DNA of 48,552 nucleotides from a virus (lineage: Duplodnaviria > Caudoviricetes), in the IMG/VR virus record IMGVR_UViG_3300037502_002351, positions 1-48,552 of that record. One strand, 5' to 3'. A program made the translations under genes and the position numbers. The notes under the pieces are model-generated. The model searched no databases. It saw nothing but the letters and a program-made list of their open reading frames with translations, and was not told the origin of the DNA. Below, piece after piece: positions 524-28,035 of this stretch; the stretch's first letter is position 1, and each line of letters opens with the position of its first letter.

Positions 524-1312
524 TTGATTGAATTAAATAGAGTGTATTGTATGGATAATTTAGAATTAATGAGGAAAATTGATGATGAAAGTATAGATTT
601 AATTTACTGTGATATTCTTTATAACACAGGAAAAAAGTTCAAAGATTTTAACGATAATCTAGGTTCACCTCAAGAAGCGATAGAGTGGTATAAACCAAGA
701 TTTAGAGAGATGAAAAGAATATTAAAAAATACAGGAAGTATTTATGTTCATTGTGATTGGCATTTAGTACATTATATAAAAGTGTTAATGGATAAAATAT
801 TTGGAATAAGTAATTTTAGAAATGAGATTATTTGGCGTTATAAAAGATGGACAGCTTCTTCAAATAACAAATTTCAATCAATGCATGATAATATTTTGTT
901 TTATACTAAAGGAGATAATAAAATTACGCATCAATATGAACCTTTAGAAAAACCACGAATGTATCAAAATAGGAAAGATAAAAATGGTGATGTTGTAAGA
1001 AATGAAGATGGGACAGTTAAATATTTTCCTCAAACAGCACGGCAAATTGATGATGTTTGGGAAATACCATTTTTAAATCCAAAAGCGAAAGAACGAGTGG
1101 GTTATGATACTCAAAAACCTAAAACATTATTAGAGAGAATAATAAAAGCGAGTAGTAATGAAGGAGATGTTGTAGCAGATTTCTTTTGTGGAAGTGGAAC
1201 TACATTAGTTGTTGCTAAAGAGTTAGGAAGACAATATATAGGTTGTGATATTAATCCAAGAGCTATTGAGATTACTGAAAAGAGGCTTGAAGAAATAAAT
1301 ATAATAAAATAG
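524..1312 (+). CDS. DNA methyltransferase, N4-C/N6-A beta class
   Basis: Motif IV variant DILY, TQKP, motif I DFFCGSGTT. Confidence 0.9.
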   Translation: MIELNRVYCMDNLELMRKIDDESIDLIYCDILYNTGKKFKDFNDNLGSPQEAIEWYKPRFREMKRILKNTGSIYVHCDWHLVHYIKVLMDKIFGISNFRNEIIWRYKRWTASSNNKFQSMHDNILFYTKGDNKITHQYEPLEKPRMYQNRKDKNGDVVRNEDGTVKYFPQTARQIDDVWEIPFLNPKAKERVGYDTQKPKTLLERIIKASSNEGDVVADFFCGSGTTLVVAKELGRQYIGCDINPRAIEITEKRLEEINIIK

Positions 1313-1321
1313 TGGTTTTAT
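1304..1321. repeat. ATAAAA-N6-TTTTAT palindromic site
   Basis: ATAAAA-TAGTGG-TTTTAT, overlapping the MTase stop codon. Confidence 0.65.
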
Positions 1322-1351
1322 GTAGAAATATAATAATATAGGAGTGATGAA

Positions 1352-1909
1352 ATGTCAGCTACAAATCGTGGAACAAAGCGAATCGAATATGATTTTTATC
1401 CGACACCAGTTGAAGTAATACATAACTTTTTAGATCATTATCAATTAAAAGATGGGACAATATTGGAATGTGCAGCAGGAAACGGCAATTTTATTAAAGT
1501 CATTCGTGATAAATGTTATAAAAACACAATTGTAGCAAATGAAATCAGACAAGAAGAGCATCAAAATTTAATTAATAGTGGTGCAGACTTTGTTTATCAT
1601 AATGATTTTCTTACTGAAAAATTGCCTAATCATGATGTTAAAACGATTATAACTAATCCACCTTTTTCAAAAGCAAAAGAGTTTATTTTGCGTTGCAAGG
1701 AATTGTATCCTGATGCTGAAATCATTATGTTATTAAGAACATCATTTCTTGAAAGCAAAGCTAGGTATAAATTTTGGCAACAATATCCTGTAAATAAATT
1801 ATACATACTTTCAAGTAGACCTAAATTCGTTAACAACAAAACTGACGCAACATCTTATGCTTTCTTTGTATGGGACAATACTGATAAACAAGAGATTAAA
1901 GTAATTTAA
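1352..1909 (+). CDS. Small phage DNA amino-methyltransferase (NPPF type)
   Basis: DFYPTP, ECAAGNG (motif I), ITNPPF (motif IV). Confidence 0.85.
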   Translation: MSATNRGTKRIEYDFYPTPVEVIHNFLDHYQLKDGTILECAAGNGNFIKVIRDKCYKNTIVANEIRQEEHQNLINSGADFVYHNDFLTEKLPNHDVKTIITNPPFSKAKEFILRCKELYPDAEIIMLLRTSFLESKARYKFWQQYPVNKLYILSSRPKFVNNKTDATSYAFFVWDNTDKQEIKVI

Positions 1910-1955
1910 AATCTGTTTAAAAATCATATTTTATAGGTTTGTGAGGTGAAAAACA

Positions 1956-2159
1956 ATGACTAATCTAAACCAACTCCATGCATACATAGAAAATATGCGC
2001 GATCAGATTGATAATAAAGTAGACGTAATTTATGAATATTTATATCATTTACAATATAAAATTGAAGAATGCGAAGAAATCGACGATGAAACATGGAGAG
2101 ATTGTGAGCAACTTGTTAATAACATTTATTTTACATTAGCAAAATTAAAAGAACTATAA
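1956..2159 (+). CDS. Hypothetical protein
   Basis: GAGGTG RBS, 67 aa ORF. Confidence 0.7.
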   Translation: MTNLNQLHAYIENMRDQIDNKVDVIYEYLYHLQYKIEECEEIDDETWRDCEQLVNNIYFTLAKLKEL

Positions 2160-2176
2160 AAATATCAAAAAATATA

Positions 2177-2205
2177 TTGACTTAAATATAATATATAAAT
2201 ATAAT
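2177..2205 (+). promoter_or_regulatory. SigA-type promoter
   Basis: TTGACT-17 nt-TATAAT with AT-rich upstream region. Confidence 0.75.
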
Positions 2206-2240
2206 TGAATTACAAGGTTTATAAAGAGAGGCGAAAAATT

Positions 2241-2363
2241 GTGACTAACTTTCTTTTTGGATTAGTCGTTGGTGGGATGATTGGGATAGTAATGATAGGA
2301 ATTATTATAGGTGGTAGCATTAATGAGAAAATTCTAAAAGGTGAAGATTATTATAATGAATAA
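2241..2363 (+). CDS. Small single-pass membrane protein (40 aa)
   Basis: GAGAGG RBS, GTG start; hydrophobic Gly-rich FLFGLVVGGMIGIVMIGIIIGG. Confidence 0.6.
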   Translation: MTNFLFGLVVGGMIGIVMIGIIIGGSINEKILKGEDYYNE

Positions 2364-2424
2364 TTAGACATTTTAAAGAGGAAACAATTGATTCAAATGC
2401 GTTTGAGTATGTGAAATTTAGAGG

Positions 2425-2442
2425 ATAAAATAGTCTTTTTAT
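2425..2442. repeat. ATAAAA-N6-TTTTAT palindromic site
   Basis: ATAAAA-TAGTCT-TTTTAT directly before the RBS of 2456..2629. Confidence 0.65.
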
Positions 2443-2455
2443 CGGAGGTGAAGGA

Positions 2456-2629
2456 ATGAAAATAAGCGAATTAATTGAGCAATTAGACGCAATAAAATCT
2501 ATGTATGGTGATATAAAGATTGCTGTCTCATTAGGTCAGGAATTTGGTATGTTGAGATCAGTTAACGTTGCAGAGTTAAACAAAAGTGGCACAGCAGAGA
2601 AGGTTGTTGATTTGAGTAATTTAGAATGA
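2456..2629 (+). CDS. Hypothetical protein (57 aa)
   Basis: GGAGGTG RBS; MKISELIEQL..., a common small phage ORF start; below ORF-track cutoff. Confidence 0.65.
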   Translation: MKISELIEQLDAIKSMYGDIKIAVSLGQEFGMLRSVNVAELNKSGTAEKVVDLSNLE

Positions 2630-2663
2630 AATTCGATTTTTAAATAGAAAGAGGGGATAAAAT

Positions 2664-2828
2664 ATGTGGGAATGGAAAGAAAAGTGGATAGGTAAACATA
2701 TATGTTTATATTTATCAGGCAAAACATCATTAAATAAGAAAATACCTCATTTTGGATTCCATTTCGAATTAACTACTGCTAGATTTGAATTGTTTGTTGG
2801 TTTCTTTGGAATATTGATCGAATGGTAA
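2664..2828 (+). CDS. Hypothetical protein (54 aa)
   Basis: GAGGGG RBS; MWEWKEKWIG...ILIEW*. Confidence 0.6.
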   Translation: MWEWKEKWIGKHICLYLSGKTSLNKKIPHFGFHFELTTARFELFVGFFGILIEW

Positions 2829-2888
2829 TTTTTTAATAAATGTTTTATTTCATCCAAATTTATAAACTAATAGAATAGAGGTGAATTA

Positions 2889-3662
2889 ATGGAAGATTTA
2901 TTAGGAAGTCTTGAATTAAATCGTATTTATCAGATGGATTGTTTAGAAGGGATGAAATTGATTCCTGATAAAAGTGTTGATTTAGTTGCAACTGATCCGC
3001 CTTATGGAATAGAATATAAATCTAATTGGTGTAATAAGTTTAATGAAATAAAAAATGATAACAGTACAGATTGGGTCTTTCCTTTTTTTAATGAAATAAA
3101 CAGAATTACAAAAGATGATTCACATTTATATTGCTTTACAAGTATACAACATATGGATGAATTTTTATCAGCAATCAAAAAATATTGGAAAATAAAAAAT
3201 ATAATAACTATTCCGCGAACAATGAAAGGTGGCTTAGGAGATTTATATTCTTCGTTTTCTCCTCAAAATGAATTTATAATATTCGCAACCAAAGGTAAAC
3301 GAAAATTCGAAAAAACAAAAATATTGAAGCCAAGCGAAATTTATTTAAAAGATAAAAGAAAAAGTCCAAAAGAATGGATTTATCGTCTTCCCGATCATTG
3401 GGATTTTGTTAAAGCTAGTAAGCATAATCTCAAAAGAATGCATCCCACACAAAAAACAGTAGATGTAATGAAGATAATTATTCAATTATCATCTAAAGAA
3501 GGAGAGGTAGTGCTAGATCCATTTATTGGTTCAGGAACTACAGCAGTTGCAGCAACTTTAACGAATAGAAAATGGATTGGCTTTGAAATTGAGACAGAAT
3601 ATGTTGAAATTGCAAATAAAAGATTAGAACAAATTGAGTTACATAATGATTTAGTGGATTAA
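2889..3662 (+). CDS. DNA methyltransferase, N4-C/N6-A beta class
   Basis: TDPPY, HPTQK, DPFIGSGTT. Confidence 0.92.
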   Translation: MEDLLGSLELNRIYQMDCLEGMKLIPDKSVDLVATDPPYGIEYKSNWCNKFNEIKNDNSTDWVFPFFNEINRITKDDSHLYCFTSIQHMDEFLSAIKKYWKIKNIITIPRTMKGGLGDLYSSFSPQNEFIIFATKGKRKFEKTKILKPSEIYLKDKRKSPKEWIYRLPDHWDFVKASKHNLKRMHPTQKTVDVMKIIIQLSSKEGEVVLDPFIGSGTTAVAATLTNRKWIGFEIETEYVEIANKRLEQIELHNDLVD

Positions 3663-3719
3663 CTGTATTAAGACGTGTTTTGATTCTAATAGAAATTTAA
3701 ATAAATTATAAAAATATAC

Positions 3720-3748
3720 TAGACAAACAAAAGAAAATGTTGTATATT
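3720..3748 (+). promoter_or_regulatory. Putative SigA-type promoter
   Basis: TAGACA-17 nt-TATATT. Confidence 0.5.
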
Positions 3749-3845
3749 AAACTTGTAAGTAATTAAAGGTGGTGAGATCAATGTAATATCTAAAATAATC
3801 CCATTTAAATAAAATATAATAAAAATAAATATAGGAGGATATTTA

Positions 3846-4076
3846 ATGAAACGATTCAAACGATCAACTCAACCATTTAAACAAACTGTATTCTCTAATC
3901 AAGCTGAAAATCGACCAGTGCTAGAAAAAGAGTGGTATGGAGTAGTTGAATTACCTAATGGGAAGAGTCGATTATATACATATACAACAAAACAGCGCAG
4001 TGAAGCAGTGGCATATTTTGAAGAAGAGGCACGTTTAAACAAAGGTGCGCTAACTATAGTTAGTGTATTTAAATAA
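3846..4076 (+). CDS. Hypothetical protein
   Basis: AGGAGG RBS. Confidence 0.75.
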   Translation: MKRFKRSTQPFKQTVFSNQAENRPVLEKEWYGVVELPNGKSRLYTYTTKQRSEAVAYFEEEARLNKGALTIVSVFK

Positions 4077-4095
4077 AATATAATAGAAAGGAAGA

Positions 4096-4353: not shown

Positions 4354-4379
4354 AATACATAAGAAGGAGAAGTGAGCAT

Positions 4380-7300
4380 ATGAGTATTAAATTTGTTACA
4401 GATGAATTTGTAAAACAAACAGTAGAAAGTAATCCAAAGCCATTAAATGAGTTAGGAGAATTTGTTTATTATCGTACTTATTCACGTTGGTTGGACAACA
4501 AAAAACGAAGAGAATATTGGCATGAAACTTGCCAACGCGCTGTTAATTACAATATGAATCTAGCATATGAACACTTGATTAATATGGGATATAAGCCAAA
4601 TATTAATGAAATGAAAAAAGAAGCCGAGCAAATTTTTAAAAATATGTATGAAACAAAGCAATTCTGCTCAGGAAGAACATTATGGGTCGGTGGAGCAAAT
4701 GAAAAGATTAATCGTGATTTTGTACTCGGTAACTTTAACTGCTCATTCTTAAATATTCAATCATGGGATGATTTAGGTGACTTGTTCTACTTGCTCCTTG
4801 TCGGTAAAATGTAAATTTGTGCCGACACTAAACCTTGTGAACCCTATTGCTCAGGGGTGTGGTGGTAATTCCACTGCTAACGGGGAAAGCTACGGTATAA
4901 ATGCTATGCTGATCCCGTGCCAAGCCTTATCTTAATGATAAGGAAGGTGTAGAGACTATCCCGTAAGGGAGTAGGGTGGAAGATGAGCTACCACTCGAAG
5001 CGCAAGGCATCTCGTATGAGATGAAGAGATAGTCCAGTCCCTATGGAAACATAGGTGTAACTGACAGGTGTAGGATTTAAATGCACAAAAGAAATGGCAG
5101 CCAAACTCCCTAAAATTCGTACAAACGTGACTCTTCTACATTCTGAATACAAACCAGTACCAAAAAAACAAAGACTTGAGCGTACAAAAGTTTCAAGATT
5201 TGATAATGGCTATGTGAAGATTTATGTTGGGGATTCAAAAGAGGGATGGGTTGAAGCATTAAAAGAATTCTTGAACATCTTAACTAAACCTGAATATGAA
5301 AATGTACATACAATTAAAATTAGTTACAATAGTGTAAGACCAAAAGGTGAACGTTTAAAAACTTTCGGTGGAACAGCATCAGGTCACGAACCATTAAAAG
5401 AAATGTTTGAAGGTTTTGATAAGGTTTTAAAAAATCAAATCGATCCACACTTAAAACCTATTGAGGTTGATGAAAAAGGATATGGTCAAGTAAGACCAAT
5501 TCATATTCTTGATATGGGTAACTTAATTGGAGCAAATGTTGTTGTTGGAGGCGTAAATTAAAATATTTTATAACGGAAGGAGCGTCTTTATGACTGCTAC
5601 GGAAAGCTATTTTAGCGAGTACACCGTTCGAGGAAAAACGTACCGATACTATGCTTTTGATAAAATCGAAAATGCAGACGATGCTTACTTTATAGGTTTT
5701 ATGAGTGCAGACGGTTCTTATTTACACAACAAAAAAGGAGACACAAATTATCCGAGAATGGGTTTAACTTCAACATCGAGATATGTTGTATATAAATTCC
5801 ATGAAAGATATTGTCCGGACGCCGTTGTTAGCGAAAGAGGTTTGAGAAGTTCCGAAAAAATTAAAGCGAATAATCCGATAACTGAAATAACATTTCCAAG
5901 AAAGTTGTCGCCTACTTTTAAAAAATTCGGGATTTTAGACTATAAACCGAAACGAAAATTACGAGGAATACCAAAGCATTTAATGAGTGCGTGTGTTTTA
6001 GGAATAACAGATGCAGACGGATGCTTCGTTATACGCCATAGAAAAGATTGTAGAACACCACGACTCAACGTTCACATAGTGTCCGGTGCAATAAATGTTT
6101 TAGAACAAATACAAAGATTCATAGACGAAGAACTAGGGATAAGTTCGTCTTTGTATCAACGAAAAGCCTCGGACTGTTTTGAATTAAGGATAAATAATTC
6201 GAACAACGCAGTCAAGTTCGGGAATTGGATTTATAGCAATTTACCGTCTGTTTACGATTTTAAAAAGAAGCGTATTTTTGATGATTATTACAATCGGTAC
6301 GTTTTACAAAGTTTTGCGCCTATCGGGTGAATTGCTGGAAGCCTAAGTCCGAAAGGATATGGTAATCAGCAGCCAAGCCACGGAACGCCGTAAAAGTACG
6401 TGGAAGGTTCAGAGACTAGGCGGTGAGTAGGCGAAACAATAATCCGCCCTCGAGCGCCCGACGCGATTAAATCGCGAAGATATAGTCCGATACCTAGTGG
6501 AAACGCTAGGAAACGTTTGGAGACGAACAGCAGAAATTTTCTTATTTGATGCAGATGATTATGAATCAATGTTTGCTAAGTACGGATTAAATGGCTTGTG
6601 GGGAGAAGAAGCATTTGAACGCCATCAAGAGATTAAACAAAAAATGATTGATTTAGGAATTGAGATCCCGACATGGTTTGACGAATTAGCCATTAAATAT
6701 TATGATGTTCATTACGAAGAAAATGGAGAACAAAAAATCGAAACATTTACCGATATTGAAAAAGCAAAAACATTTGCAAAAGAAAAAGGCGTAGAAAATT
6801 ATTATCCATTCCCTTATAATTTAGGGCGACCTTATCATCATCGTAGAATGAGTAATAATTCAATTGCGTTTACTAAAAAGCCAACAAGAAAATTTTTAAA
6901 TTTCGTCTTTACAATGTTGAAAGGTGAAGGAGAGCCGGGATTTGTTAATCTCGAAGAAGCTGCAAGACGTGTATTAAAAGCAATTAACATTGAGAATCCA
7001 GATAAAGAATTGTTAGAATATACAATGGCGCTCATTGGGCTGAACCCTTGCGTTGAAATCATTCTTTATACATATAACGTGTGTAACCTTACAACAGTCA
7101 ATGTAAAAGCATTTGTTGAAAAACTAGCTGATGACCAATATTGGTTAAATGTTAAAAAGTTACTTGAGGCGCAACGTCTTTCAGCAAGAATTGGATTACG
7201 AATGACATTAGCAAAACTCGAGCTTCCGCATTGGGATAAAACACAAAAGCGCGATAGATTACTAGGAACATCTTTAACTGGCTGGAAAGATGCAATGGCA

Positions 7301-8306: not shown

Positions 8307-8312
8307 TAAAAA

Positions 8313-9351: not shown

Positions 9352-9612
9352 ATGAATATCCCTAAATTCCCTGATGACTTTTATAGTTTTCATGACGGTG
9401 TTGACATTTCTAATGAAGAAATCAACGAATGGATTCAAAAATGTATTAGTGACTTAGAAACGAATGGCGGCTACTGTTCTTCAATTAGTTCAGGCAACAC
9501 AACAGTTTCAATTAATAAATTTTATTATGATGAATATAGTGACGAATATTATTATGACATTCGAGTTAGCAAAGGATATTATCAAGCAGATACATATAAT
9601 GAAGAACGATAA
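9352..9612 (+). CDS. Hypothetical protein
   Basis: AAGGAG RBS; acidic. Confidence 0.7.
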   Translation: MNIPKFPDDFYSFHDGVDISNEEINEWIQKCISDLETNGGYCSSISSGNTTVSINKFYYDEYSDEYYYDIRVSKGYYQADTYNEER

Positions 9613-9626
9613 AAGCATGATTTTAT
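9609..9626. repeat. ATAAAA-N6-TTTTAT palindromic site
   Basis: ATAAAA-GCATGA-TTTTAT containing the TAA stop of 9352..9612. Confidence 0.65.
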
Positions 9627-9659
9627 TTAAATAAATTATTATAGAGAAAGGGTGTAAAA

Positions 9660-9953
9660 ATGAGTGTCAAAGGATTTTTTGAAGATTGGGATGGAGAAGA
9701 AGTTTTGAGCGATGTAAGAAATTTTAAAGATGAAAAAGACTTTTTGGAACAAGCTACAAAGTATGTAGAGAAAACAAGGGGTTATCACGTACCATTAATC
9801 AACGTTGTTAAAACCGTTATAATTTTTAATGATGAGGAATGGAGATACAAGGATGATATGGATCTATGGAATGAAGTAGAAGAAGAAAAATTTATTGGTG
9901 AGGAATTAGTGGTTTATAAAGCTGAGTTGGATTATGAAAGTATAGAAGATTAA
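9660..9953 (+). CDS. Hypothetical acidic protein
   Basis: AAGGGTG RBS. Confidence 0.7.
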   Translation: MSVKGFFEDWDGEEVLSDVRNFKDEKDFLEQATKYVEKTRGYHVPLINVVKTVIIFNDEEWRYKDDMDLWNEVEEEKFIGEELVVYKAELDYESIED

Positions 9954-9966
9954 ATCAAAGAATTAT

Positions 9967-10179
9967 TTGATAGAAAGGGTGATTTCAAAAATGAAAAGCA
10001 AGACAATTTATGATAACGGTAACTCAAGATTAACGGTTAAATATGATGGTGTAATTGTTACTCTTAAACAAGAGTTAGACGGTGTTTCTGATGTAGAAAT
10101 CTATTTGTTTCAAGATGAATTAGAGGATATTTTAGAGTTTGTTAAAGAAAATAATTCATTGGGGGAAGACATCAAATAG
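9967..10179 (+). CDS. Hypothetical protein (true start probably ATG 9991)
   Basis: AAGGGTG RBS precedes ATG 9991. Confidence 0.65.
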   Translation: MIERVISKMKSKTIYDNGNSRLTVKYDGVIVTLKQELDGVSDVEIYLFQDELEDILEFVKENNSLGEDIK

Positions 10180-10435: not shown

Positions 10436-12427
10436 ATGACATACGGCAACGAAAGTATCAGAAGTTTATCAGATAAAGAGGCGGTGAGATTAAGACCAGC
10501 AAATATTTTAGGATCAGATGACATTAATGGATGTTTCCATTGTTTGATTGAGATTGCTGATAACGCAATAGACGAAGCAAAAGGTGGATATGGCGATAAG
10601 ATCATTATTACAAAACATAAAGACAACTATTACAGTGTTGAAGATTTTGGTCGTGGAGTGCCGATGGATTGGAATAGCATAGAAAACAAATACAACTATG
10701 AATTAATCTTCCAAACATTATACGCTGGTGGTAAATATACAAAAAATGATGATGACGCTTATGCATTTGCAAAAGGTTTAAATGGTTTAGGAGCTTCAGC
10801 AACAGCATTTTCAAGTAAACATATGCTAGTTCGTTCTTATCGTGATGGTTACAAATATGAAATTGAAATTGTAGAAGGGGAAGTCGTTGGTGGATTAAAG
10901 AAAGAAAAATATAATTATGATTCAACAGGGACATTTGTTAAATGGTTGCCGGATTTATCCGTATTCACAGAGACAGATATTCCTTTTGAATGGATTAAAA
11001 AATATGCAGAAGAACAGGCGATTGTAAATAAAGGTATTACAGTTGAAGTTTGTAATGAAGAAACAAATGAAAAGCACACATATTATTATGAAAACGGAAT
11101 TGTTGATTATATTCATAAACTCAATCAAGGTAAAAACTTTACTGATGTTGTGTATTGGGAAACAGAAGCAATTGGACGAGATCGCGAAGATAAAAAAGAT
11201 TATCGCTCAAAATATCAAATTGCTTTTTGTTTCAATAATGAAGTTAATGTAATGGAATCTTATCACAATAGTTCATTTTTAAAGCATGGGGGAAGCCCAC
11301 ATGAAGCAATAAAAAATGGATTTACATATGCAATTGATCAGTTAATTAAGAAAAAAGGTGAATATAAAAAAGGCGAAAAGAAAATTGCGTTTGATGATAT
11401 AAAGGATAGTCTGATTATAATTACGAACACGTACAGTACGGAAACAAGTTATGAGAATCAGACGAAATTTGCAATCACAAATAAATTTATTCGTGAATTT
11501 ATGACTGAATATATAAAACAACAACTTGAGATTTATTTCATTGAAAATCCAATGGAAGCAGATAAGATTGTAAAGCAGGTGTTAGTCAATAAACGTAGTC
11601 GTGAAAAAGCTGAACAAGCAAGATTGGATATTAAAAAGAAATTACAGATCAACACAGGAAATAGTTTGCGAAATAAAATCGAAGACTTAAAAGATTGTGA
11701 TATGAAAACTACAACACTAGATGAAAGAGAGCTTTGGGTGTGCGAAGGGCTAAGTGCGGCTTCAACAATTACAGATGCCCGTGATAATAGAACAATGGGA
11801 ATATATGCATTAAGAGGACGATTTATTTCGTCATTAAAGAACAGTATAGAGGATGTTTTAAATAATAAACCAGCAATGGGATTAATTCAAGCGTTGGGTT
11901 GTGGAATTGAAATTCCAAAAAACGAATTAAAGAAATTTAAGAATATTGAAACATTTGATTTAAATAATTTACGTTATGGAAAAATTATTATTGCATGTGA
12001 CAGCGATGCTTTTGGACATGGAATTACACTTTCATTAATCACATTTTTTTACAAATTCATGCCAACACTTCTTAAACAAAATAGAATTTATATTTCTATA
12101 TCACCAAGATATGAAATTAAATGTGCTGATGAAACATTGTTTGCTTATAATGAAAAACAAAAAGAAGAGATTGTTTCTAAATTAGAAAGAAAACATAAAA
12201 AATTTACAGTTGGAATCGTAAAGGGGCTGGGAGAATTAGATAAAGAGGTTTATTGGGATTATGTTATGAATCCTGAAACAAGGATCTTAAAGCAATTAAT
12301 TTATGATGAGCAGTATGAAAATCAAATTAACTACTATTTTAATACATTGATGGGTGAAGATATTGATGAGCGCAAGAAATATGTTAAACAAAATATAATA
12401 AATTTAGATTTAACATTTATTGATTAA
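10436..12427 (+). CDS. Type IIA DNA topoisomerase subunit B (GyrB/ParE-like)
   Basis: GHKL motifs EIADNAIDE, DFGRGVP, GLNGLG; TOPRIM motifs EGLSA, LRG, DSDAFG; KGLGE. Confidence 0.92.
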   Translation: MTYGNESIRSLSDKEAVRLRPANILGSDDINGCFHCLIEIADNAIDEAKGGYGDKIIITKHKDNYYSVEDFGRGVPMDWNSIENKYNYELIFQTLYAGGKYTKNDDDAYAFAKGLNGLGASATAFSSKHMLVRSYRDGYKYEIEIVEGEVVGGLKKEKYNYDSTGTFVKWLPDLSVFTETDIPFEWIKKYAEEQAIVNKGITVEVCNEETNEKHTYYYENGIVDYIHKLNQGKNFTDVVYWETEAIGRDREDKKDYRSKYQIAFCFNNEVNVMESYHNSSFLKHGGSPHEAIKNGFTYAIDQLIKKKGEYKKGEKKIAFDDIKDSLIIITNTYSTETSYENQTKFAITNKFIREFMTEYIKQQLEIYFIENPMEADKIVKQVLVNKRSREKAEQARLDIKKKLQINTGNSLRNKIEDLKDCDMKTTTLDERELWVCEGLSAASTITDARDNRTMGIYALRGRFISSLKNSIEDVLNNKPAMGLIQALGCGIEIPKNELKKFKNIETFDLNNLRYGKIIIACDSDAFGHGITLSLITFFYKFMPTLLKQNRIYISISPRYEIKCADETLFAYNEKQKEEIVSKLERKHKKFTVGIVKGLGELDKEVYWDYVMNPETRILKQLIYDEQYENQINYYFNTLMGEDIDERKKYVKQNIINLDLTFID

Positions 12428-12440
12428 GGAGGTTTTAATA

Positions 12441-13172
12441 TTGCCCAAATATACATTTAACAAAGAGTATTTTGATGTAATCAATACCAAAGATAAAGCA
12501 TATTGGTTAGGATTTATTTGGTGTGATGGTTATGTTTGTAAAAGAATTAGAAATAATGAAAGAATTGAATATAATTTAAAATTGTCGCTATCTGAGCAAG
12601 ATGGAAGTCATTTAGAAAAATTTAAATTAGCATTGTCATCTACCCATCCTATAAAAAAGTATAAAGTTAAGTCATTTAATAATGAAATTTGTGAATATAG
12701 GTTTTTCTTATCAAACAATTATTTACCAAAGAAGCTATATGAGAAATATGGTCTTATTCCTCATAGACATAATATTGAAAATTTAATAAATAAAATTCCT
12801 GAAACACTTGTGAGTCATTTTATTAGAGGAGTTTTTGATGCGGAAGGAAGTATAAATTATTCTATTAATTATGACGGTAATAAATTAGGTTGGAGAAAAT
12901 ATGATTTAACAATAACTACATATCACGATTTATTAATATACATAGATGATAAATTAATAAAACAAAAAATATTTGAAAATAAACATAAACTTTATCATAG
13001 ACATAAAAATAGAGATTTACATTGTAGATCTTTAAAAATTTGTGGAAATCGTCAAATATTAAATATGCTTCATTTTATTTACAAAGATAGTAACGATAAT
13101 ATTAGATTAGAAAGAAAATATCAAAGATATTTAGATATGTTGAACTATATGCAAAATAAAAATTTAAAATAA
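12441..13172 (+). CDS. Free-standing LAGLIDADG homing endonuclease
   Basis: AYWLGFIWCDG and FIRGVFDAEGS; AAGGAGG RBS before TTG 12441. Confidence 0.85.
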   Translation: MPKYTFNKEYFDVINTKDKAYWLGFIWCDGYVCKRIRNNERIEYNLKLSLSEQDGSHLEKFKLALSSTHPIKKYKVKSFNNEICEYRFFLSNNYLPKKLYEKYGLIPHRHNIENLINKIPETLVSHFIRGVFDAEGSINYSINYDGNKLGWRKYDLTITTYHDLLIYIDDKLIKQKIFENKHKLYHRHKNRDLHCRSLKICGNRQILNMLHFIYKDSNDNIRLERKYQRYLDMLNYMQNKNLK

Positions 13173-17806: not shown

Positions 17807-17854
17807 AAGTGATTCTGAATCAAATCTACACTTTATAGAAAGGTTGGATTCGTT

Positions 17855-18196
17855 ATGAAAGAGTTTCATATAAGTGATGTACTAACTATTACTACTGGAA
17901 AGTTAGTTTCCATAAGACATATGGAAGGTGTTTACGACATTTTGAACTACATGACAAATGATAATTTATTTACACATCAATTACCAAGAGCAATGGATGA
18001 ATGTAAACCATATTTACTTAAACAATTTCCATTCTTAAATAACATAAATAAAGATGAAATCACAGAGAACAACTGGAAAGATTGGTTAAATGATAAAATT
18101 GAACAATTTGGTGAATATCTAAAAGTTGAACAATTGCCAAACGGTATTCATAAATATAAAAATCCTATTGTAGAAGCTATTAAAATGATGCAATAA
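17855..18196 (+). CDS. Hypothetical phage protein
   Basis: AAAGG RBS; flanked by palindromic sites at 17819 and 18193. Confidence 0.75.
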   Translation: MKEFHISDVLTITTGKLVSIRHMEGVYDILNYMTNDNLFTHQLPRAMDECKPYLLKQFPFLNNINKDEITENNWKDWLNDKIEQFGEYLKVEQLPNGIHKYKNPIVEAIKMMQ

Positions 18197-18228
18197 AAGG
18201 TCAATTATATTCAAATGGGGTGAATCTC

Positions 18229-21804: not shown

Positions 21805-21805
21805 A

Positions 21806-21861: not shown

Positions 21862-21882
21862 TTTTTATAGGAGGTAACACAT

Positions 21883-23538
21883 ATGATAAAGTGGATTGCT
21901 GGAATATACGCACGTGTAAGTACAGAACATGAAAATCAAAAAACAAGCACAGATAACCAAATTTCACTTATGGAAGAATGGGCAAAATCACAAAAAGATG
22001 TAGAAATTTACGATGTTTACATTGATGAGGGGATTACGGGCACAAAGATTGAAAAGCGTTTATCTTTTCAGCGTATGTTAAAAGATGCAAAAACAGGAAA
22101 AATAAATTTAATTATTGTCAAATCAATCACACGCTTTGCACGTAACCAGTTGGACTCAATCAGATTGGCAAAAGAGTTAAAAGAGCAGGGGGTTAGAATA
22201 TACTTTTATCAAGAGCAAATTGATACATTTAACGATGTTAAAATGTTAGGGTTGTTTGCTTGGTTGGCAGAAAATGAATCACGTGCAACATCAGAGAGAA
22301 GAAAATTGGGTGGAAGAGAGGCACAAAAAAAAGGAAGATTTGTTACTAACCGTCCTCCATTAGGATATAAAAGTGTTAATGGAAAATTAGTGATTGATGA
22401 AGAAGAAGCAAAGATTGTTAAACGAATATTTGATTTATATTTAAAAGGATATGGTTTTGCTAAAATTGCAGATACGCTTAATGAAGAAGGATATCGAACG
22501 AGACGAGGATATCCGTTTCGAAAAGATAAAATTAAATACATTTTAAAAAACGAAGTATATATAGGGACATTTATAGGCAACAAATACACAAAAGTAGATT
22601 TACTTTCATCAAAAATAGTAGAGAAACCAAAGGAAGAGTGGATTATCATTGAAAACAACCACGAGGCAATCATTGATAAAGATACTTTTGACAAAGTGCA
22701 AAAATTAATGGAAGATAAAAGTTTTAATGTAGGCAAGAGATCTGTTGCTCTGTTTGCTGGCGTTATCAAATGTGGTAAATGCGGTCACAGCTATAATCGC
22801 GTAACAAACGAGAAAAAAACAGGTAAGGTTTATCATTATTATGCTTGTGTAGGAAGAAGGCAAAAAGGGAAATCTTTTTGTGATGCAAAAAATGTAAAAG
22901 AGGATGACATTATTGAAATTATTAACAATGAATTGAAAAGTTTAAAAATCAATCAAAATGTATTAGAAGATATGAAAGAAAAAACAATGCGCCTAATTGA
23001 TGAGAAAATGAAAAGTATAGATGAAGAATTAGTTTACATTGACACTCGTATCAAAGAAATAGAAGAAGATAGAAAAAATTTAGCAAAGAAAAATATTAGA
23101 GGAATTATTGATGACGATTTGTTTCAAGAAATGGACGCAGAATTGAAAACGGAATTAAAAAAGTTAAATGCTAAAAAGAATAAAAATAAAATTGTAGATA
23201 ATAAAAAAATTTACGAAAGAATATACGATGAATTTATGAATACTATTGCAAATTTCACAGACGTAAGAAATTTAAGTAATGTAGAGGTGCGTAAGCTAAT
23301 AGATAATATTGAAATTAAAGATGATGAGATAAACATTGAAATAAAAATCAACAAAACTGATTTTGATATTAATGAAAGTTTAAGTATTGACCCATTGTTT
23401 ACAAATAGCATTGATATAGCAACAGATAAAGAGAAAATAGGTTTGTCATTTGTCCCTATTGTTTCAACGATAGATACAAATGACAAACCAAATAAGAACA
23501 TAAAACACAAGATTAGACTTAAATTATCGTACGCATAA
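21883..23538 (+). CDS. Large serine recombinase (integrase)
   Basis: YARVST, SITRFARN, recombinase domain, zinc ribbon CGKCG...C...C, coiled coil. Confidence 0.93.
   Translation: MIKWIAGIYARVSTEHENQKTSTDNQISLMEEWAKSQKDVEIYDVYIDEGITGTKIEKRLSFQRMLKDAKTGKINLIIVKSITRFARNQLDSIRLAKELKEQGVRIYFYQEQIDTFNDVKMLGLFAWLAENESRATSERRKLGGREAQKKGRFVTNRPPLGYKSVNGKLVIDEEEAKIVKRIFDLYLKGYGFAKIADTLNEEGYRTRRGYPFRKDKIKYILKNEVYIGTFIGNKYTKVDLLSSKIVEKPKEEWIIIENNHEAIIDKDTFDKVQKLMEDKSFNVGKRSVALFAGVIKCGKCGHSYNRVTNEKKTGKVYHYYACVGRRQKGKSFCDAKNVKEDDIIEIINNELKSLKINQNVLEDMKEKTMRLIDEKMKSIDEELVYIDTRIKEIEEDRKNLAKKNIRGIIDDDLFQEMDAELKTELKKLNAKKNKNKIVDNKKIYERIYDEFMNTIANFTDVRNLSNVEVRKLIDNIEIKDDEINIEIKINKTDFDINESLSIDPLFTNSIDIATDKEKIGLSFVPIVSTIDTNDKPNKNIKHKIRLKLSYA
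23440..23489. other. Candidate attP site (50-bp imperfect inverted repeat, central TC)
   Basis: GGTTTGTCATTTGT-CCCTATTGTT-TC-AACGATAGAT-ACAAATGACAAACC. Confidence 0.6.
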
Positions 23539-23647: not shown

Positions 23648-23680
23648 AAAAAGTAGAGATATTGCTATTCTCTACTTTTT
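23648..23680. terminator. Bidirectional terminator between the convergent arms
   Basis: AAAAAGTAGAGA ... TCTCTACTTTTT. Confidence 0.65.
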
Positions 23681-24478: not shown

Positions 24479-24483
24479 TCCTA

Positions 24484-24720: not shown

Positions 24721-24733
24721 TTAAATCATCTCC

Positions 24734-24982
24734 TTAATTAAAAATTTTTCCTAAAACAAAAAGGACTAGAGGAACTAATACTGTTAAAATTGTTCCTGTT
24801 GTCCATTTAAGTGTTGATGATAATTTATTAATATCACCTTCGTTATCTTCTGCTTTAACCATTGCTTTTTCTGCTAATCGAAACGCACTATCTGCCGTTT
24901 CACGAATGGAACGAACATCATCAATTTTTGCTTCTAATCTCCCCATTCTTTCATATAAATCACGTAAAATTTCTTCATTCAT
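24734..24982 (-). CDS. XhlA-like lysis accessory membrane protein
   Basis: Coiled coil followed by W and C-terminal TM helix; AAGGTGG RBS before ATG 24982. Confidence 0.7.
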   Translation of the reverse strand: MNEEILRDLYERMGRLEAKIDDVRSIRETADSAFRLAEKAMVKAEDNEGDINKLSSTLKWTTGTILTVLVPLVLFVLGKIFN

Positions 24983-25080
24983 TTTGATCCACCTTTCATT
25001 AAAATTAAAAGGTGGCGATTTGATAATCCCCACCTTTTAAAATCATTGATTTTCAAGGGTTTTTGTTTATTATATTTTAG

Positions 25081-25098
25081 ATAAAAGCGTCATTTTAT
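25081..25098. repeat. ATAAAA-N6-TTTTAT palindromic site (extended type)
   Basis: ATAAAA-GCGTCA-TTTTAT, with TCAAG-containing accessory motif 28 nt upstream. Confidence 0.65.
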
Positions 25099-25114
25099 AC
25101 AGTCAGATTCCAGA

Positions 25115-26185
25115 TTACGCGATGTACGCCGAGCGGAAGCTGAGGCCATGAAACGAGTACGAACGAGCGCCGTTCAGGCGCAGCGCGAAGACCCCAGCAG
25201 AAGCCCCATGGCCCCAGTCACCGCCACGAAACGGAAGGCGCTCACCGTAGTTGCGCACCCAGATACCGTCTCCACCATGGTTTGCATCGATAGGAGCAAT
25301 AGCGAGATACTTCAATAAATCTGGGACTGTGAAACCGGATTTAGCTCCCAACGTTTCAAAGGTCGTATGGCTATGCCCGTAGTGAGCGTCTGAACTTGGA
25401 TCAGTTGTATACATCGGATTTGTTCTTTCCGCTCCCAAAATAGGGTCGCCACCAACATCAGCTGAAGTAGTGTTTGCATTTCCCGGGGTCGTGTTATCAA
25501 TATACACGCCTGTGTCAACCCATTGATCGACTAGGCGATATCCTTCTGGTGTATTGAAGTTGTTGTCCTGATGAACATAAATCTTTCCATCTATGAGTTT
25601 CAATCCGTCAACCCATTCCCATACGTTCCCGTTGAGGTCGAAAATACCTTCATTCGTTCCATCGTGCGACCAGCTGGCAGGACCTGATCCAGTAGCAACA
25701 CGAGCATCCTGTCCACCTGATTGAAATGTCACTTTTCCGCGCTCATGCGTTGCCGCATGATCTCTTCCGTAGTTGTTATTTCCTCTAGGCATAAACCCGT
25801 TCTTTTTGCACCACAAAGCAATCGCAGCCCATTCGGCGTTTGTCATCAAGTGCCAGCCTGAACCTTTTGCTGCGCAAAATTGTTTCACTTGCTCGTATGT
25901 CACAGATGTCCTCGGATCTTGAAAAGGTAGAGAATATGCACGTCCATCGTGCACGATATTTTGATATTTGGAAATCCAAATTTCGCTTTTTACTACACCG
26001 TTTACAATGAATGCTGGATGAGGCGTGTTTGGTGCGCCCGTAATAACATCCGACAGATTGAATTTAGGAATGCAAACCATGATAGACGGATTTCCTTTGT
26101 CATCATACATGACCGTGTTTTTTCCGCCTGTTGCCATTTCAACCGATTGGCGCAATGAATCTTTTACCGATACAACAAATGCCAT
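25115..26185 (-). CDS. FGE-sulfatase/C-type-lectin-fold tail adhesin, DGR target-like
   Basis: GWHLMTNAEW, DLNGNVWEW, C-terminal RGGDW...AGVFAL.L...RS.S....SFR. Confidence 0.8.
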   Translation of the reverse strand: MAFVVSVKDSLRQSVEMATGGKNTVMYDDKGNPSIMVCIPKFNLSDVITGAPNTPHPAFIVNGVVKSEIWISKYQNIVHDGRAYSLPFQDPRTSVTYEQVKQFCAAKGSGWHLMTNAEWAAIALWCKKNGFMPRGNNNYGRDHAATHERGKVTFQSGGQDARVATGSGPASWSHDGTNEGIFDLNGNVWEWVDGLKLIDGKIYVHQDNNFNTPEGYRLVDQWVDTGVYIDNTTPGNANTTSADVGGDPILGAERTNPMYTTDPSSDAHYGHSHTTFETLGAKSGFTVPDLLKYLAIAPIDANHGGDGIWVRNYGERLPFRGGDWGHGASAGVFALRLNGARSYSFHGLSFRSAYIA

Positions 26186-26502
26186 TACAACTCAACTCCT
26201 TCTGGTAATGCCCATAGGCGGATTTCGACTTTCGACACATCTAAAGACATCGGAACAATGCTCGTTTCACTGTTATCGTTTTCCACAAGCTGATATTCTC
26301 GTGATGGAATAATGATTGTAGCTACATACCAAGCCCCCACACCTTCTTGCGCAGTATATGTCGTATCAAGACATACGTCAATCACACGTTGCACATCACC
26401 CTGTCTCTCTTGCAGATCGATCGACAATATACCAATATTTAGTGTCGTCCCCTCAAGTGTAAACTTTGCCTTCCGTCCACTGTTTAAATGAGTGATAATC
26501 AT
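26185..26502 (-). CDS. Tail-fibre-associated hypothetical protein
   Basis: GGAGG RBS; coupled to the adhesin gene. Confidence 0.7.
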   Translation of the reverse strand: MIITHLNSGRKAKFTLEGTTLNIGILSIDLQERQGDVQRVIDVCLDTTYTAQEGVGAWYVATIIIPSREYQLVENDNSETSIVPMSLDVSKVEIRLWALPEGVEL

Positions 26503-26514
26503 TCACATCTCCTC

Positions 26515-27564
26515 CTATGCCACTAGTGGATTGAGTAGCGTCCATATAAATGTGACACTGCTCGCACTACCTGTCATTTTCACTTTAAAACCATTCTGTG
26601 TTTTGTCATATACAATCAACTGCCCATAATCACCGTTCGATGAAATAACGTCAATAACCACCGCATAGTTCGGCGCGTTGATTTGTGCATATCCTGTTAA
26701 TGTCACTTGTATAAACGGCTCATTATCTCGAAAATACCCGTTTGAATTCACACCTGTTATTGTTGCGACTCCTTGCTGAAAACGTAATTTTTTGTACTTG
26801 TCAATTTCTAAAAAGATTGAACGATCGTTTTGAAATAGAACGTCATCAGCGGTTGATAAAATTCCAATTTTATTTTGCACGTCGGTGATTGCGTTGGCGT
26901 TATATTGTTGCGTCCATACCCATTGTGTACCATTCCAACGATAGATTTTGCTATCGTCAATAGTCTGTACGGTGTCACCTAACTGCGGATTCGGATATGT
27001 CTTTGCAATATCTGCGTAGGTGTTTACCGCTGTGAGCCAGCGTGTTTTGTTTTCATCCCCGACTTGTTTTGCATAGTCACCTTGCGCTTTGGCGTAATTG
27101 CCTTGTGTTTGAGCGTATTGCGCTTGTGTCGTTGCATTATTTGCTGCGTCATTTGCAGTATCTCTAGCAACATCGGTTTCATCAATTAATGTTTGTAAAG
27201 TTTCTACAATTTCTCCATTGTTCTCTCTAGTCCAAATTCTTGAAGCAGGAAAAGCAATCAAACCGACACCTTGATAATCAAATATAAATTCTTTACCTTC
27301 GTTAGAAGAATTGAAGTATACAATTCCAAGTGAATAATCAACTCTATATTCATTAGCCTTAGGTGTCAAACTGGTTGTTTCATAAAGAAATTTTCCATTA
27401 CTATCTTTAACAGTAACCTTAATAAATAAATCTGGCACTTCTTTTAATATTACTCGGCTATTTACTACTTTTAATGATTCACTGATGGGAACATAAGGAT
27501 CATCTTGTGTTCCTTTTCGTTTATAAACATATATTTTTTCAACTTTAGGAAAGAAGAAACTCAT
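26515..27564 (-). CDS. Putative tail fibre/baseplate protein
   Basis: A(Q/K).QG.Y repeats, YRWNGTQW, C-terminal H-type-lectin-like strands (TQNGFKV). Confidence 0.7.
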   Translation of the reverse strand: MSFFFPKVEKIYVYKRKGTQDDPYVPISESLKVVNSRVILKEVPDLFIKVTVKDSNGKFLYETTSLTPKANEYRVDYSLGIVYFNSSNEGKEFIFDYQGVGLIAFPASRIWTRENNGEIVETLQTLIDETDVARDTANDAANNATTQAQYAQTQGNYAKAQGDYAKQVGDENKTRWLTAVNTYADIAKTYPNPQLGDTVQTIDDSKIYRWNGTQWVWTQQYNANAITDVQNKIGILSTADDVLFQNDRSIFLEIDKYKKLRFQQGVATITGVNSNGYFRDNEPFIQVTLTGYAQINAPNYAVVIDVISSNGDYGQLIVYDKTQNGFKVKMTGSASSVTFIWTLLNPLVA

Positions 27565-27621
27565 ATATTAACCTCCTTTTAATTAGGAATAAAAATAAAG
27601 AGAGTTATTTAAAACTCTCTA

Positions 27622-27906
27622 TTAATAAGCACCTATCCAATTGTAAGAAATATTTGGTTCAACAATTACAAAACTATAAATTGGAGCATCATGCAAATCA
27701 ATATTAAAGCCTTGATTTGCACGCAAGAATATTGGGCTACCTCCATTAATTTTTACAGTGCAATTTTGTTCATTGTAAAAAGAGAACTTGTAAAGTTTGT
27801 ATTTTGTTGACCAGTGGCTAGGTGGCGATGGGATGATTTCTTGGTTAGCAGTTGACACTTGAACTGACAGACTACCAATATAGCCACTTCCTATAATATA
27901 AGACAT
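27622..27906 (-). CDS. Hypothetical virion-module protein
   Basis: AAGGAGGTG RBS. Confidence 0.7.
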   Translation of the reverse strand: MSYIIGSGYIGSLSVQVSTANQEIIPSPPSHWSTKYKLYKFSFYNEQNCTVKINGGSPIFLRANQGFNIDLHDAPIYSFVIVEPNISYNWIGAY

Positions 27907-28017
27907 TAATTCATCACCTCCTTATTTAAAATTGTTAAATAAAAAAAGAGTAGGGTGATGAATTCACACTCTTCAAAAACCCTTATATATCAAGCATTTT
28001 TAAACCTTCATTTTACT

Positions 28018-28035
28018 ATAAAATGCATATTTTAT
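28018..28035. repeat. ATAAAA-N6-TTTTAT palindromic site (extended type)
   Basis: ATAAAA-TGCATA-TTTTAT, with TCAAG-containing accessory motif 28 nt upstream. Confidence 0.65.

What the first reader, a model, noticed from the sequence alone, without database searches (positions are those of the whole stretch)
1304..28035. 18-bp palindrome ATAAAA-N6-TTTTAT delimits single-gene units: candidate integron-like cassette system
Seen: perfect copies at 1304, 2425, 9609, 25081 and 28018. Near-perfect copies at 1917 (TTAAAA-ATCATA-TTTTAT), 2626 (ATGAAA-TTCGAT-TTTTAA), 2836 (ATAAAT-GTTTTA-TTTCAT), 17819 (ATCAAA-TCTACA-CTTTAT), 18193 (ATAAAA-GGTCAA-TTATAT) and 45092; weaker ones at 3667 and 9949. Arms are conserved while the 6-nt spacer varies. 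Copies sit on or just after stop codons and before the next RBS, bracketing 1352-1909, 2456-2629, 2664-2828, 2889-3662, 9660-9953 and 17855-18196. Rough chance expectation of perfect copies at 70% AT is about 0.2 per window, ignoring A-tract bias. Established: inverted arms around a 6-8 bp spacer is the layout of tyrosine recombinase core sites. Inference: accessory genes are promoterless cassettes gained and lost at these sites, possibly by the recombinase at 43038-44045. A repressor or nucleoid-protein binding site is the alternative.
Basis: partly seen in the sequence, partly recalled or inferred. Interest (0 to 1): 0.82.

Follow-up and report, generated by a model that had tools for sequence, protein, structure and literature searches.

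The report
Address-coded gene-swap joints in phages
A 28-base palindrome sits between the small genes of this SPbeta-like bacteriophage, and related phages keep the same copies, with the same six middle bases, in the same order while the genes between them differ, so the copies likely act as addressed joints where phages swap genes, probably through a phage recombinase that has not yet been identified.

Summary
The motif is real: 6 perfect copies against 0.14 expected, and none at other spacer lengths. The window is part of an SPbeta-like phage. The full site is about 28 bp (11-bp arm TYTRRATAAAA, 6-bp spacer, inverted arm) and is family-wide, SPbeta included. The spacer behaves as an address. 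Eight of 11 intergenic window sites carry the same spacer as Geobacillus virus E3, in the same order (0.37 expected), yet 4 of 5 intervals compared hold unrelated genes. In 13 B. subtilis relatives, homology breaks pile up at the site core and spacer order is nearly fixed. A 360-bp site-to-site module is 100% identical in the otherwise unrelated phage FADO. This fits replacement of modules between phages at matching sites. It does not fit integron-type excision and shuffling: no gene is flanked by two identical spacers. The enzyme is not shown. The window's YomM-like tyrosine recombinase keeps its catalytic residues but tracks the motif imperfectly, and laboratory hybrids show ordinary homologous crossovers. 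Ten literature searches found no description.

The parts
1299..1326 (.). 28-bp site, spacer TAGTGG; overlaps the stop codon of methyltransferase 524-1312
   Evidence: same spacer in E3 with both flanks homologous; a relative's contig lacks 512-1339 but keeps this spacer and a right arm
1912..1939 (.). 28-bp site, spacer ATCATA
   Evidence: no counterpart in E3
2420..2447 (.). 28-bp site, spacer TAGTCT
   Evidence: same spacer in E3, right flank unrelated
2456..2629 (+). 57-aa gene filling the TAGTCT-TTCGAT interval
   Evidence: E3 holds an unrelated 83-aa ORF in the same interval
2621..2648 (.). 28-bp site, spacer TTCGAT
   Evidence: same spacer in E3, both flanks unrelated
2664..2828 (+). 54-aa gene filling the TTCGAT-GTTTTA interval
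   Evidence: E3 holds an unrelated 58-aa ORF there
2831..2858 (.). 28-bp site, spacer GTTTTA
   Evidence: same spacer in E3, both flanks unrelated
   Evidence: one relative's contig rejoins the window at 3679, the first base of the right arm
9604..9631 (.). 28-bp site, spacer GCATGA
   Evidence: same spacer in E3, both flanks unrelated; one relative has an unrelated left flank joined here with a different spacer
9660..9953 (+). 97-aa gene filling the GCATGA-GAATTA interval
   Evidence: E3 holds an unrelated 54-aa ORF there
9949..9976 (.). weak 28-bp site, spacer GAATTA (score 8.0)
   Evidence: E3 has GAGTTA at the matching rank
17814..17841 (.). 28-bp site, spacer TCTACA
   Evidence: same spacer in E3; a 95%-identical block with E3 ends at 17843
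17855..18196 (+). 113-aa DUF7736 gene filling the TCTACA-GGTCAA interval
   Evidence: E3 holds an unrelated 101-aa ORF there
18188..18215 (.). 28-bp site, spacer GGTCAA
   Evidence: same spacer in E3 and in L293; a relative's contig has a joint at 18195-18200
25076..25103 (.). 28-bp site, spacer GCGTCA, between the holin and tail-tip genes
   Evidence: blocks shared with E3 and L293 end at 25098; L293 has GTCACA (E3's spacer) and GCGTCA 69 bp apart
   Evidence: same spacer in L293
28013..28040 (.). 28-bp site, spacer TGCATA
   Evidence: no counterpart in E3
36385..36412 (.). 28-bp site inside the tape-measure gene, spacer CTGTCA
   Evidence: score 18.7; a block shared with E3 ends at 36393
41209..41236 (.). 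28-bp site inside ORF 40819-41562, spacer CTGCGA
   Evidence: score 19.2
45087..45114 (.). 28-bp site, spacer TTGACA, preceded on the + strand by a GC-rich hairpin
   Evidence: same spacer in E3; a shared block starts at 45091; hairpin z -3.1
43038..44045 (-). YomM-like tyrosine recombinase, candidate enzyme (R181, K212, H283-x-x-K286, H310, Y319)
   Evidence: 64% to SPbeta YomM, 70% to E3; residues; nearest solved structures are Xer recombinases
21883..23538 (+). large serine recombinase; by its position and family the likely prophage integrase, so not needed to explain the sites

Best explanation
The palindromes are 28-bp sites (11-bp arm, 6-bp spacer, inverted arm) at which the genomes of related phages switch between unrelated genes, and they likely work as spacer-addressed crossover points, probably cut by a phage tyrosine recombinase that would need matching spacers. 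Shown: each site has its own spacer; relatives keep the same spacers in the same order; the DNA between two sites is often replaced wholesale, with joints inside the TAAAA-N6-TTTTA core; and within a locus the spacer is as conserved as the arms although it is free between loci. Inferred: when two phage genomes meet in one cell (superinfecting phage and prophage, or co-infection), a recombinase dimer bound to the arms exchanges strands across the spacer. Identical spacers would favour exchange between matching sites of the two genomes, two crossovers would swap the module between them, and different spacers within a genome would prevent self-deletion. The candidate enzyme is the YomM ortholog 43038-44045, or the YopP ortholog, which lies outside this window.
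For: Window against E3: 8 of 11 intergenic spacers identical and collinear (null mean 0.37, maximum 4 in 20,000), and 4 of the 5 intervals compared hold unrelated genes. Thirteen B. subtilis phages, 483 sites: the spacer is identical in 197 of 250 pairs with the same right and unrelated left flank, in 156 of 191 mirror pairs, and in 134 of 20,000 unrelated pairs; the outer arm on the swapped side falls toward the level of random site pairs. These pairs are not independent; they come from 52 of 93 site loci. 139 of 759 homology ends lie within 25 bp of a site centre (1.44% of the genome). In SPbeta, 31 of 33 boundaries with a site against 51 of 91 without carry a breakpoint (p 3e-5). Spacer columns vary in 9 of 276 cases against 244 of 2,760 for flanks (p 6e-4), like the inner arms. 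17 of 55 intervals have wholly unrelated fillings. A 357-364-bp module is 100% identical between FADO and 4 of 13 Spbetaviruses and ends inside two sites, although FADO shares at most 1.6 kb with any of them. The 11+6+11 layout is that of dif, where the 6-bp centre is the exchange region (PMC5357621, passages). YomM keeps the catalytic set, with Lys for the second Arg.
Against: No activity was tested. Laboratory phi3T-SPbeta hybrids switch parent in 1.4-18 kb identical tracts (uninformative) or in 31-87 bp tracts without a site. Their authors ascribe 15 of 16 junctions to homologous recombination (10.1101/2020.05.06.055103, passages). When a neighbour changes, the site is lost in 98 of 348 and 93 of 286 pairs and has another spacer in 21 and 27, so matching is not absolute. 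About half of right-side swaps still share the outer right arm (estimated). Lactococcus phage 949 has YomM and YopP homologs but no clear motif; two complete records with 71-73% YomM have only 5 TAAAA-N6-TTTTA copies. FADO carries the shared spacers in a non-syntenic order, so it may have received them without matching sites. Three window copies lie inside coding sequence. The absence of duplicate spacers is only weakly significant (product of probabilities 0.02-0.11 over 8 lineages). A four-gamete test was inconclusive.
Confidence: 0.55

Rival explanations
1. The sites are 'boundary sequences'. A dimeric protein binds the arms, and the 16 identical bases (TAAAA + spacer + TTTTA) shared by matching sites are used by a phage annealase (Sak4-like YorG) or by host homologous recombination, with no site-specific cleavage.
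For: It explains the same address pattern. Short-tract recombination is pervasive: 15% of SNP pairs 40-120 bp apart fail the four-gamete test genome-wide. YorG homologs occur in most of the group. Short boundary sequences are a proposed route to mosaicism (PMC3029335, passages). No tyrosine recombinase tracks the motif cleanly.
Against: Homologous recombination needs no palindrome, no fixed 6-bp spacer and no 11-bp arms. 16 bp is short for it (recalled). Many site losses keep the left arm and break at the arm-spacer border (examples read by eye), where a tyrosine recombinase would cut.
Confidence: 0.25
2. The sites only dock a dimeric DNA-binding protein (regulatory or structural). Breakpoints cluster there because random replacements that remove a site are selected against.
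For: The motif is double-strand in character: the spacer is not self-complementary and 9 of 10 site regions fold no better than shuffles. Some copies lie in coding sequence. The MrpR/SroF family is present in 8 of 8 clearly motif-positive genomes and absent from 949, SEP9, Enterococcus phage 9183 and G024. 56% of boundaries without a site also break.
Against: A docking site gives no reason for a spacer that is free between loci to be as conserved as the arms within a locus, or to stay identical when both flanks are unrelated (4 such sites between the window and E3). Incoming flanks bring their own outer arm. MrpR/SroF binds other sequences, as a monomer, and its 10 ChAP-seq peaks give SPBRE (PMC10516654 and 10.1101/2025.11.27.690993, passages).
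Confidence: 0.12
3. Integron-like cassettes: single genes excise as circles and reinsert at any site.
For: Single genes lie between sites. Goe11 has a 171-bp unit between TGTTGA and CGTTGA, and SPbetaL1 has adjacent TTGGAG and TTGAAG.
Against: No identical spacer pair in 21 sequences. Order is fixed. Adjacent spacers are no more alike than distant ones (mean distance 4.15 against 4.24). No attC-like fold. IntI model 29.5 bits against a cut-off of 265.
Confidence: 0.04
4. The sites serve mainly to resolve sister-genome multimers during replication, and module swapping is a by-product.
For: dif-like layout; nearest structures are Xer proteins; sites are spread along the whole genome.
Against: A mutated spacer still matches its own sister copy, so this predicts no conservation of spacers between phages, contrary. 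One site would be enough.
Confidence: 0.04

Closest known systems
pdif sites and dif modules of Acinetobacter plasmids (XerC/XerD; PMC9455709, PMC9771954, passages)
   Same: Many Xer-type core sites in one replicon, each pair flanking accessory genes; identical modules turn up in different backbones.
   Different: Here the arms are one symmetric sequence (TYTRRATAAAA), not XerC and XerD boxes; the replicon is a phage; and the sites keep a fixed order with locus-specific spacers.
dif, difSL/XerS and difH/XerH core sites (PMC5357621, passages)
   Same: 11-bp arms around a 6-bp centre; XerS and XerH arms also end in AAAA next to the centre.
   Different: Those are single chromosomal sites for dimer resolution; here there are 30-50 per genome, each with another spacer.
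Recombinase-mediated cassette exchange with heterospecific lox/FRT spacers (engineered; recalled, search listing only)
   Same: Different spacers stop self-recombination and direct the swap of the segment between two matching sites.
   Different: Artificial, two sites; this would be a natural, genome-wide version, with the enzyme unproven.
Boundary or linker sequences of lambdoid phages (as cited in PMC3029335, passages)
   Same: Short conserved sequences at gene boundaries that are proposed to guide mosaic exchange.
   Different: Not described there as palindromic recombinase-type sites or as carrying a position code.
Integrons (attC cassettes, IntI)
   Same: Single accessory genes between recombination sites.
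   Different: No IntI, no attC fold, no reordering, no same-spacer flanks.
SPBRE / SroF box of SPbeta-like phages (PMC10516654; 10.1101/2025.11.27.690993; passages)
   Same: Repeated intergenic element of the same phage family, bound by a protein with a tyrosine-recombinase fold; some boxes lie next to these sites.
   Different: Another sequence, about 10 bound places, monomeric catalytically dead repressor; the nearest SPBRE-like match is 28 bp from a site.
Putative attP after gp50 of Tyroviruses (PMC9703825, passages and Supplementary Table 10 rows)
   Same: An 11-6-11 inverted repeat beside the YomM-type gene.
   Different: One copy with an unrelated sequence; no motif-scoring site follows that gene in Izhevsk or FADO.

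Membership tests
Integron | IntI-family integrase | tested here: not met
   TIGR02249 29.5 bits, cut-off 265, only residues 278-319
Integron | attC sites folding into single-strand hairpins (feature recalled) | tested here: not met
   9 of 10 site regions have z between -1.8 and +1.3; the tenth is a hairpin beside the site; spacer not self-complementary
Integron | cassettes excise and change order | tested here: not met
   8 discordant of 27,151 spacer pairs; no same-spacer flanks
Integron | attI and Pc next to the integrase | not tested
   no motif site within 900 bp after the window's recombinase; promoters were not scanned
pdif / dif modules | 11+6+11 core flanking accessory genes | tested here: met
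pdif / dif modules | asymmetric XerC and XerD boxes used by host Xer | tested here: not met
   the arms are one symmetric consensus; the comparison with dif box letters is recalled
pdif / dif modules | identical modules in unrelated backbones | tested here: met
   100%-identical site-to-site module in FADO and 4 Spbetaviruses
Tyrosine recombinase core site | crossovers confined to the core, with spacer identity between partners | tested here: inconclusive
   joints map to the 16-bp core and spacers match in about 80% of pairs where both genomes have a site, but about 30% of neighbour changes lose the site; the core cannot be resolved more finely because the inner arms are invariant
Tyrosine recombinase core site | binding and cleavage by a cognate recombinase | not testable with these tools
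   needs biochemistry
Active tyrosine recombinase (43038-44045) | R-K-H-R-H/W-Y catalytic set | tested here: inconclusive
   R181, K212, H283, H310, Y319 present; Lys286 replaces the second Arg, as in SPbeta, E3, Perkons and the staphylococcal orthologs
MrpR/SroF operator (SPBRE) | sequence match to the published box | tested here: not met
SPbeta-like phage | YomM, YomG-type tail genes, serine integrase, SPbeta gene order | tested here: met
   the window is a 48.5-kb fragment

The most novel reading that the evidence does not exclude
SPbeta-like and Tyrovirus-like phages of Bacillota carry a natural, genome-wide cassette-exchange system: 30-50 recombinase sites whose 6-bp spacers form a shared address code, so that phages meeting in one host, even unrelated ones, swap single genes at fixed slots through a dedicated phage tyrosine recombinase such as YomM.
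Probability: 0.45. Interest if true: 0.92.

Novelty: new variant of a known kind. Interest (0 to 1): 0.78.

Why it matters
Mosaic junctions in phage genomes are mostly put down to illegitimate recombination followed by selection, because boundary sequences cannot be found at most junctions (PMC3029335, passages). Here a defined, position-coded joint accounts for a large share of junctions in a model phage family, including the prophage of B. subtilis 168, so the question can be tested directly. It would give a function to a conserved phage tyrosine recombinase of unknown role, show how accessory genes (methyltransferases, small unknown genes) move between phages with almost no shared DNA, and could supply a recombinase with dozens of natural orthogonal sites.

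Tried and rejected
(1) Close relatives through GyrB: genome contigs returned 80 loci at 44-50% identity, of no use as relatives. As a control they show 41 TAAAA-N6-TTTTA against 16-25 at other spacers; about a third of the 41 are one conserved stretch just after gyrB, read as coding, so I do not count this as host enrichment. (2) Laboratory hybrids as fresh crossovers: uninformative or site-free; the phi3T/phi3Ts replacement does not start at a site either. The preprint's Supplementary Table 1 (16 junctions) could bear on this and was not seen. (3) Four-gamete test for extra crossovers at sites: only 3-8 usable sites per reference, p 0.11-0.45. (4) Selection against duplicate spacers: not significant per genome. 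(5) Adjacent spacers arising by duplication: not supported. (6) Deep sharing of addresses between the window and SPbeta: only 2 exact matches, within the null; the look-alike run TAGTCT-TTCGAT-GTTTTA is not claimed. (7) Enzyme by co-occurrence: YomM and YopP are also in Lactococcus phage 949; MrpR/SroF tracks best but has another target. I gave 35 of 48 motif loci to the YomM search; 33 records were searched and 14 had a close ortholog, including 9 of the 12 near-complete records with 9 or more perfect copies. G032, scored as lacking YomM, has a divergent intact recombinase at the same position. (8) The Tyrovirus attP is another sequence. (9) RNA hairpin, terminator or Rfam family: rejected. 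(10) A closer view of relatives' contigs over 1000-4000 was not obtained, so joints at the five leftmost sites rest on the cut tables: 3 of 15 joints shown (17 not shown) and 1 of 24 loose ends shown (208 not shown) touch a site or the weak 3667 copy. (11) No structure or complex prediction was run; it would not decide DNA specificity.
Full report
Observation. ATAAAA-N6-TTTTAT occurs 6 times exactly in the window (1304, 2425, 9609, 25081, 26856, 28018) against 0.14 expected, and 12 times with up to one mismatch against 3.64. Spacers of 4, 5, 7 and 8 nt give no exact copy.

What the window is. It is a 48.5-kb fragment of an SPbeta-like phage. Methyltransferases, a class II ribonucleotide reductase, gyrase, thyA, dfr and RuvC lie on +, followed by a serine recombinase; lysis and tail genes lie on -. 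ORF 43038-44045 is the ortholog of SPbeta YomM (64%) and of the Geobacillus virus E3 protein (70%).

The full site. SPbeta itself has 13 exact and 25 one-mismatch copies, against 0 and 4-7 at other spacers. A column profile of 363 distinct copies from 16 sequences extends each arm to 11 bp, TYTRRATAAAA, giving 11+6+11. That is the layout of dif, whose 6-bp centre is where strands are exchanged (PMC5357621, passages). The spacer is not self-complementary and 9 of 10 site regions fold no better than shuffles, so this is a double-strand site. TAAAA-N6-TTTTA is also enriched in Perkons, a Staphylococcus SPbeta-like phage, phi127, Izhevsk and FADO, weakly in Enterococcus phage 9183, and not clearly in Lactococcus phage 949 or SEP9. 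In SPbeta, 33 of 35 sites are at gene boundaries.

Breakpoints in B. subtilis relatives. I compared 13 complete Spbetavirus genomes (483 sites at matrix score 12 or more). Among site pairs with the same right flank and an unrelated left flank, the spacer is identical in 197 of 250; for the mirror case, 156 of 191; among unrelated pairs, 134 of 20,000. On the swapped side the outer arm falls toward the identity of random site pairs, so incoming DNA usually brings its own arm; the fall is only partial on the right side. The pairs are not independent: 52 of 93 site loci show a swap and 27 show both kinds. That count needs a site in both genomes. Without that condition, a changed neighbour keeps site and spacer in 198 of 348 and 157 of 286 pairs, keeps a site with one mismatch in 31 and 9, has another spacer in 21 and 27, and has no site in 98 and 93. 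Of 759 clustered homology ends, 139 lie within 25 bp of a site centre (1.44% of the genome), with starts peaking at -14 to -8 and stops at +8 to +14. In SPbeta, 31 of 33 boundaries with a site and 51 of 91 without (gaps under 20 bp left out) carry a breakpoint (p 3e-5).

The spacer is an address. The spacer lists of the 13 genomes are collinear: 8 of 27,151 shared pairs are out of order. In 46 groups of orthologous sites, spacer columns vary in 9 of 276 cases, inner arms in 14 of 552 and flanks in 244 of 2,760 (p 6e-4), although spacers are nearly free between loci. Of 55 intervals seen in three or more genomes, 17 have wholly unrelated fillings; GTTTTA-GGATGA has five, of 270-369 bp. No genome repeats a spacer, but chance alone allows that with probability 0.02-0.11 over 8 lineages.

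The window itself. Eight of its 11 intergenic sites have the same spacer in E3, in the same order (null mean 0.37, maximum 4 in 20,000). In 4 of the 5 intervals compared, the genes are unrelated (2456-2629, 2664-2828, 9660-9953, 17855-18196; alignment scores within shuffle range), while methyltransferase 1352-1909 is shared. Shared blocks end at 17843, 25098 and 36393 and start at 45091, all at or within 2 bp of a site; most other block ends in that list are not at sites. L293 carries GGTCAA, TTCCAA and both GTCACA and GCGTCA, which explains the one syntenic site where the window and E3 differ as a deletion between two neighbouring sites. In contigs of closer relatives, 3 of 15 joints shown and 1 of 24 loose ends shown touch a site or the weak 3667 copy, one with a different spacer; both tables were cut.

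Transfer without flanking homology. FADO shares at most 1.6 kb with any of the 13 Spbetaviruses, yet a 357-364-bp segment is 100% identical in four of them. It starts 5-10 bp left of the TTCTAA centre and ends 5-7 bp right of the TGTTGA centre; 7 of 15 distinct block ends lie within 25 bp of a FADO site. FADO shares 5-6 spacers with B. subtilis phages and none with Izhevsk (best of two orientations, 45 pairs tested). Its shared spacers are not in Spbetavirus order, so whether FADO had matching sites beforehand is open.

Enzyme. YomM is the only non-replication SPbeta ORF with a hit in all 7 motif-positive genomes first compared. The window's copy keeps R181, K212, H283, H310 and Y319, with Lys286 for the second Arg; its nearest solved structures are Xer proteins, and it is not an IntI. 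The link is imperfect. Phage 949 has YomM and YopP homologs without the motif, and two complete records with close YomM have few exact copies. The MrpR/SroF family tracks the motif best, but it is a catalytically dead, monomeric repressor of other sequences (PMC10516654, passages; 10.1101/2025.11.27.690993, passages). Laboratory hybrids give no support: they switch in long identical tracts or in short tracts without a site (10.1101/2020.05.06.055103, passages, supplements not seen). A four-gamete test was inconclusive.

Mechanism. Shown: fixed, spacer-coded joints at which modules are replaced. Inferred: a tyrosine recombinase exchanging strands across matching spacers between two phage genomes (0.55). 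Short-homology recombination at protein-bound boundary sequences is the main rival (0.25); a pure docking site (0.12) does not explain the conserved spacers; integron-type cassettes (0.04) fail three defining tests.

Known systems and novelty. It works like Acinetobacter dif modules (PMC9455709 and PMC9771954, passages) and like engineered cassette exchange with heterospecific spacers (recalled), and it gives a concrete form to boundary sequences (PMC3029335, passages). It is not a member of those families on the tests run. Ten searches of the held library found no description. The library lacks most subscription papers; Lazarevic et al. 1999 and the Brady et al. papers were not seen, and of 10.1101/2021.11.22.469490 I saw passages and section 21 but not its Table 2 image. 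The SPbeta record marks two copies only as stem-loops (2622-2651 and 116406-116431). The Tyrovirus attP is another sequence (PMC9703825, passages and Supplementary Table 10 rows). Earlier notes of this scan saw the motif on other genomes. One reached the same reading, which I saw only after and do not count as independent support.

Noticed in passing
window 4796-5056 and 6251-6510; 5590-6330: Two group I introns split the class II ribonucleotide reductase gene, with a LAGLIDADG ORF in the second; relatives' contigs lack the first intron.
   Followed up: partly
window 33046-40746: The tape-measure gene is in three pieces (39295-40746, 38440-38637, 33046-37875) separated by two non-coding inserts of about 560 and 650 bp that look intron-like by eye; no Rfam match at gathering score. 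E3 has 33046-38637 as one ORF.
   Followed up: partly
window 12420-13172: A free-standing LAGLIDADG endonuclease between gyrB and gyrA, absent at this place in E3.
   Followed up: no
window 41694-42862: Two HNH-repeat ORFs between the YomM-like gene and 40819-41562; no motif site follows the recombinase here, whereas one does in SPbeta, E3 and several relatives.
   Followed up: partly
window 524-1312, 1352-1909, 2889-3662: Three DNA methyltransferases within 3.2 kb; 524-1312 is missing in one relative and 2889-3662 precedes 1352-1909 in another.
   Followed up: partly
B. subtilis phages, site near SPbeta 99492 and near 2623: The spacer is inverted between alleles: TGATAA against TTATCA, and TTCCCA against TGGGTA with one change.
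   Followed up: no
one search list of pairs without a site: Many alleles that lack a site keep an intact left arm and diverge exactly at the arm-spacer border; these may be half-site scars or the state before a site arose.
   Followed up: partly
   Followed up: no
FADO (L282-L290): A strong palindrome CGTTG-N-CAACG, 13 copies against about 0 expected; possibly an operator.
   Followed up: no
phi3T-type genomes, right of the TCGGTC and GATCAA sites: An A-tract resembling the published SroF box abuts the right arm; an SPBRE-like box lies 28 bp from the SPbeta site before aimR.
   Followed up: partly
L294, L295, L304, L305: Phages with 71-73% YomM have few exact copies, and the site after the recombinase has a TTTCA right arm, which suggests a clade-specific arm variant.
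   Followed up: no
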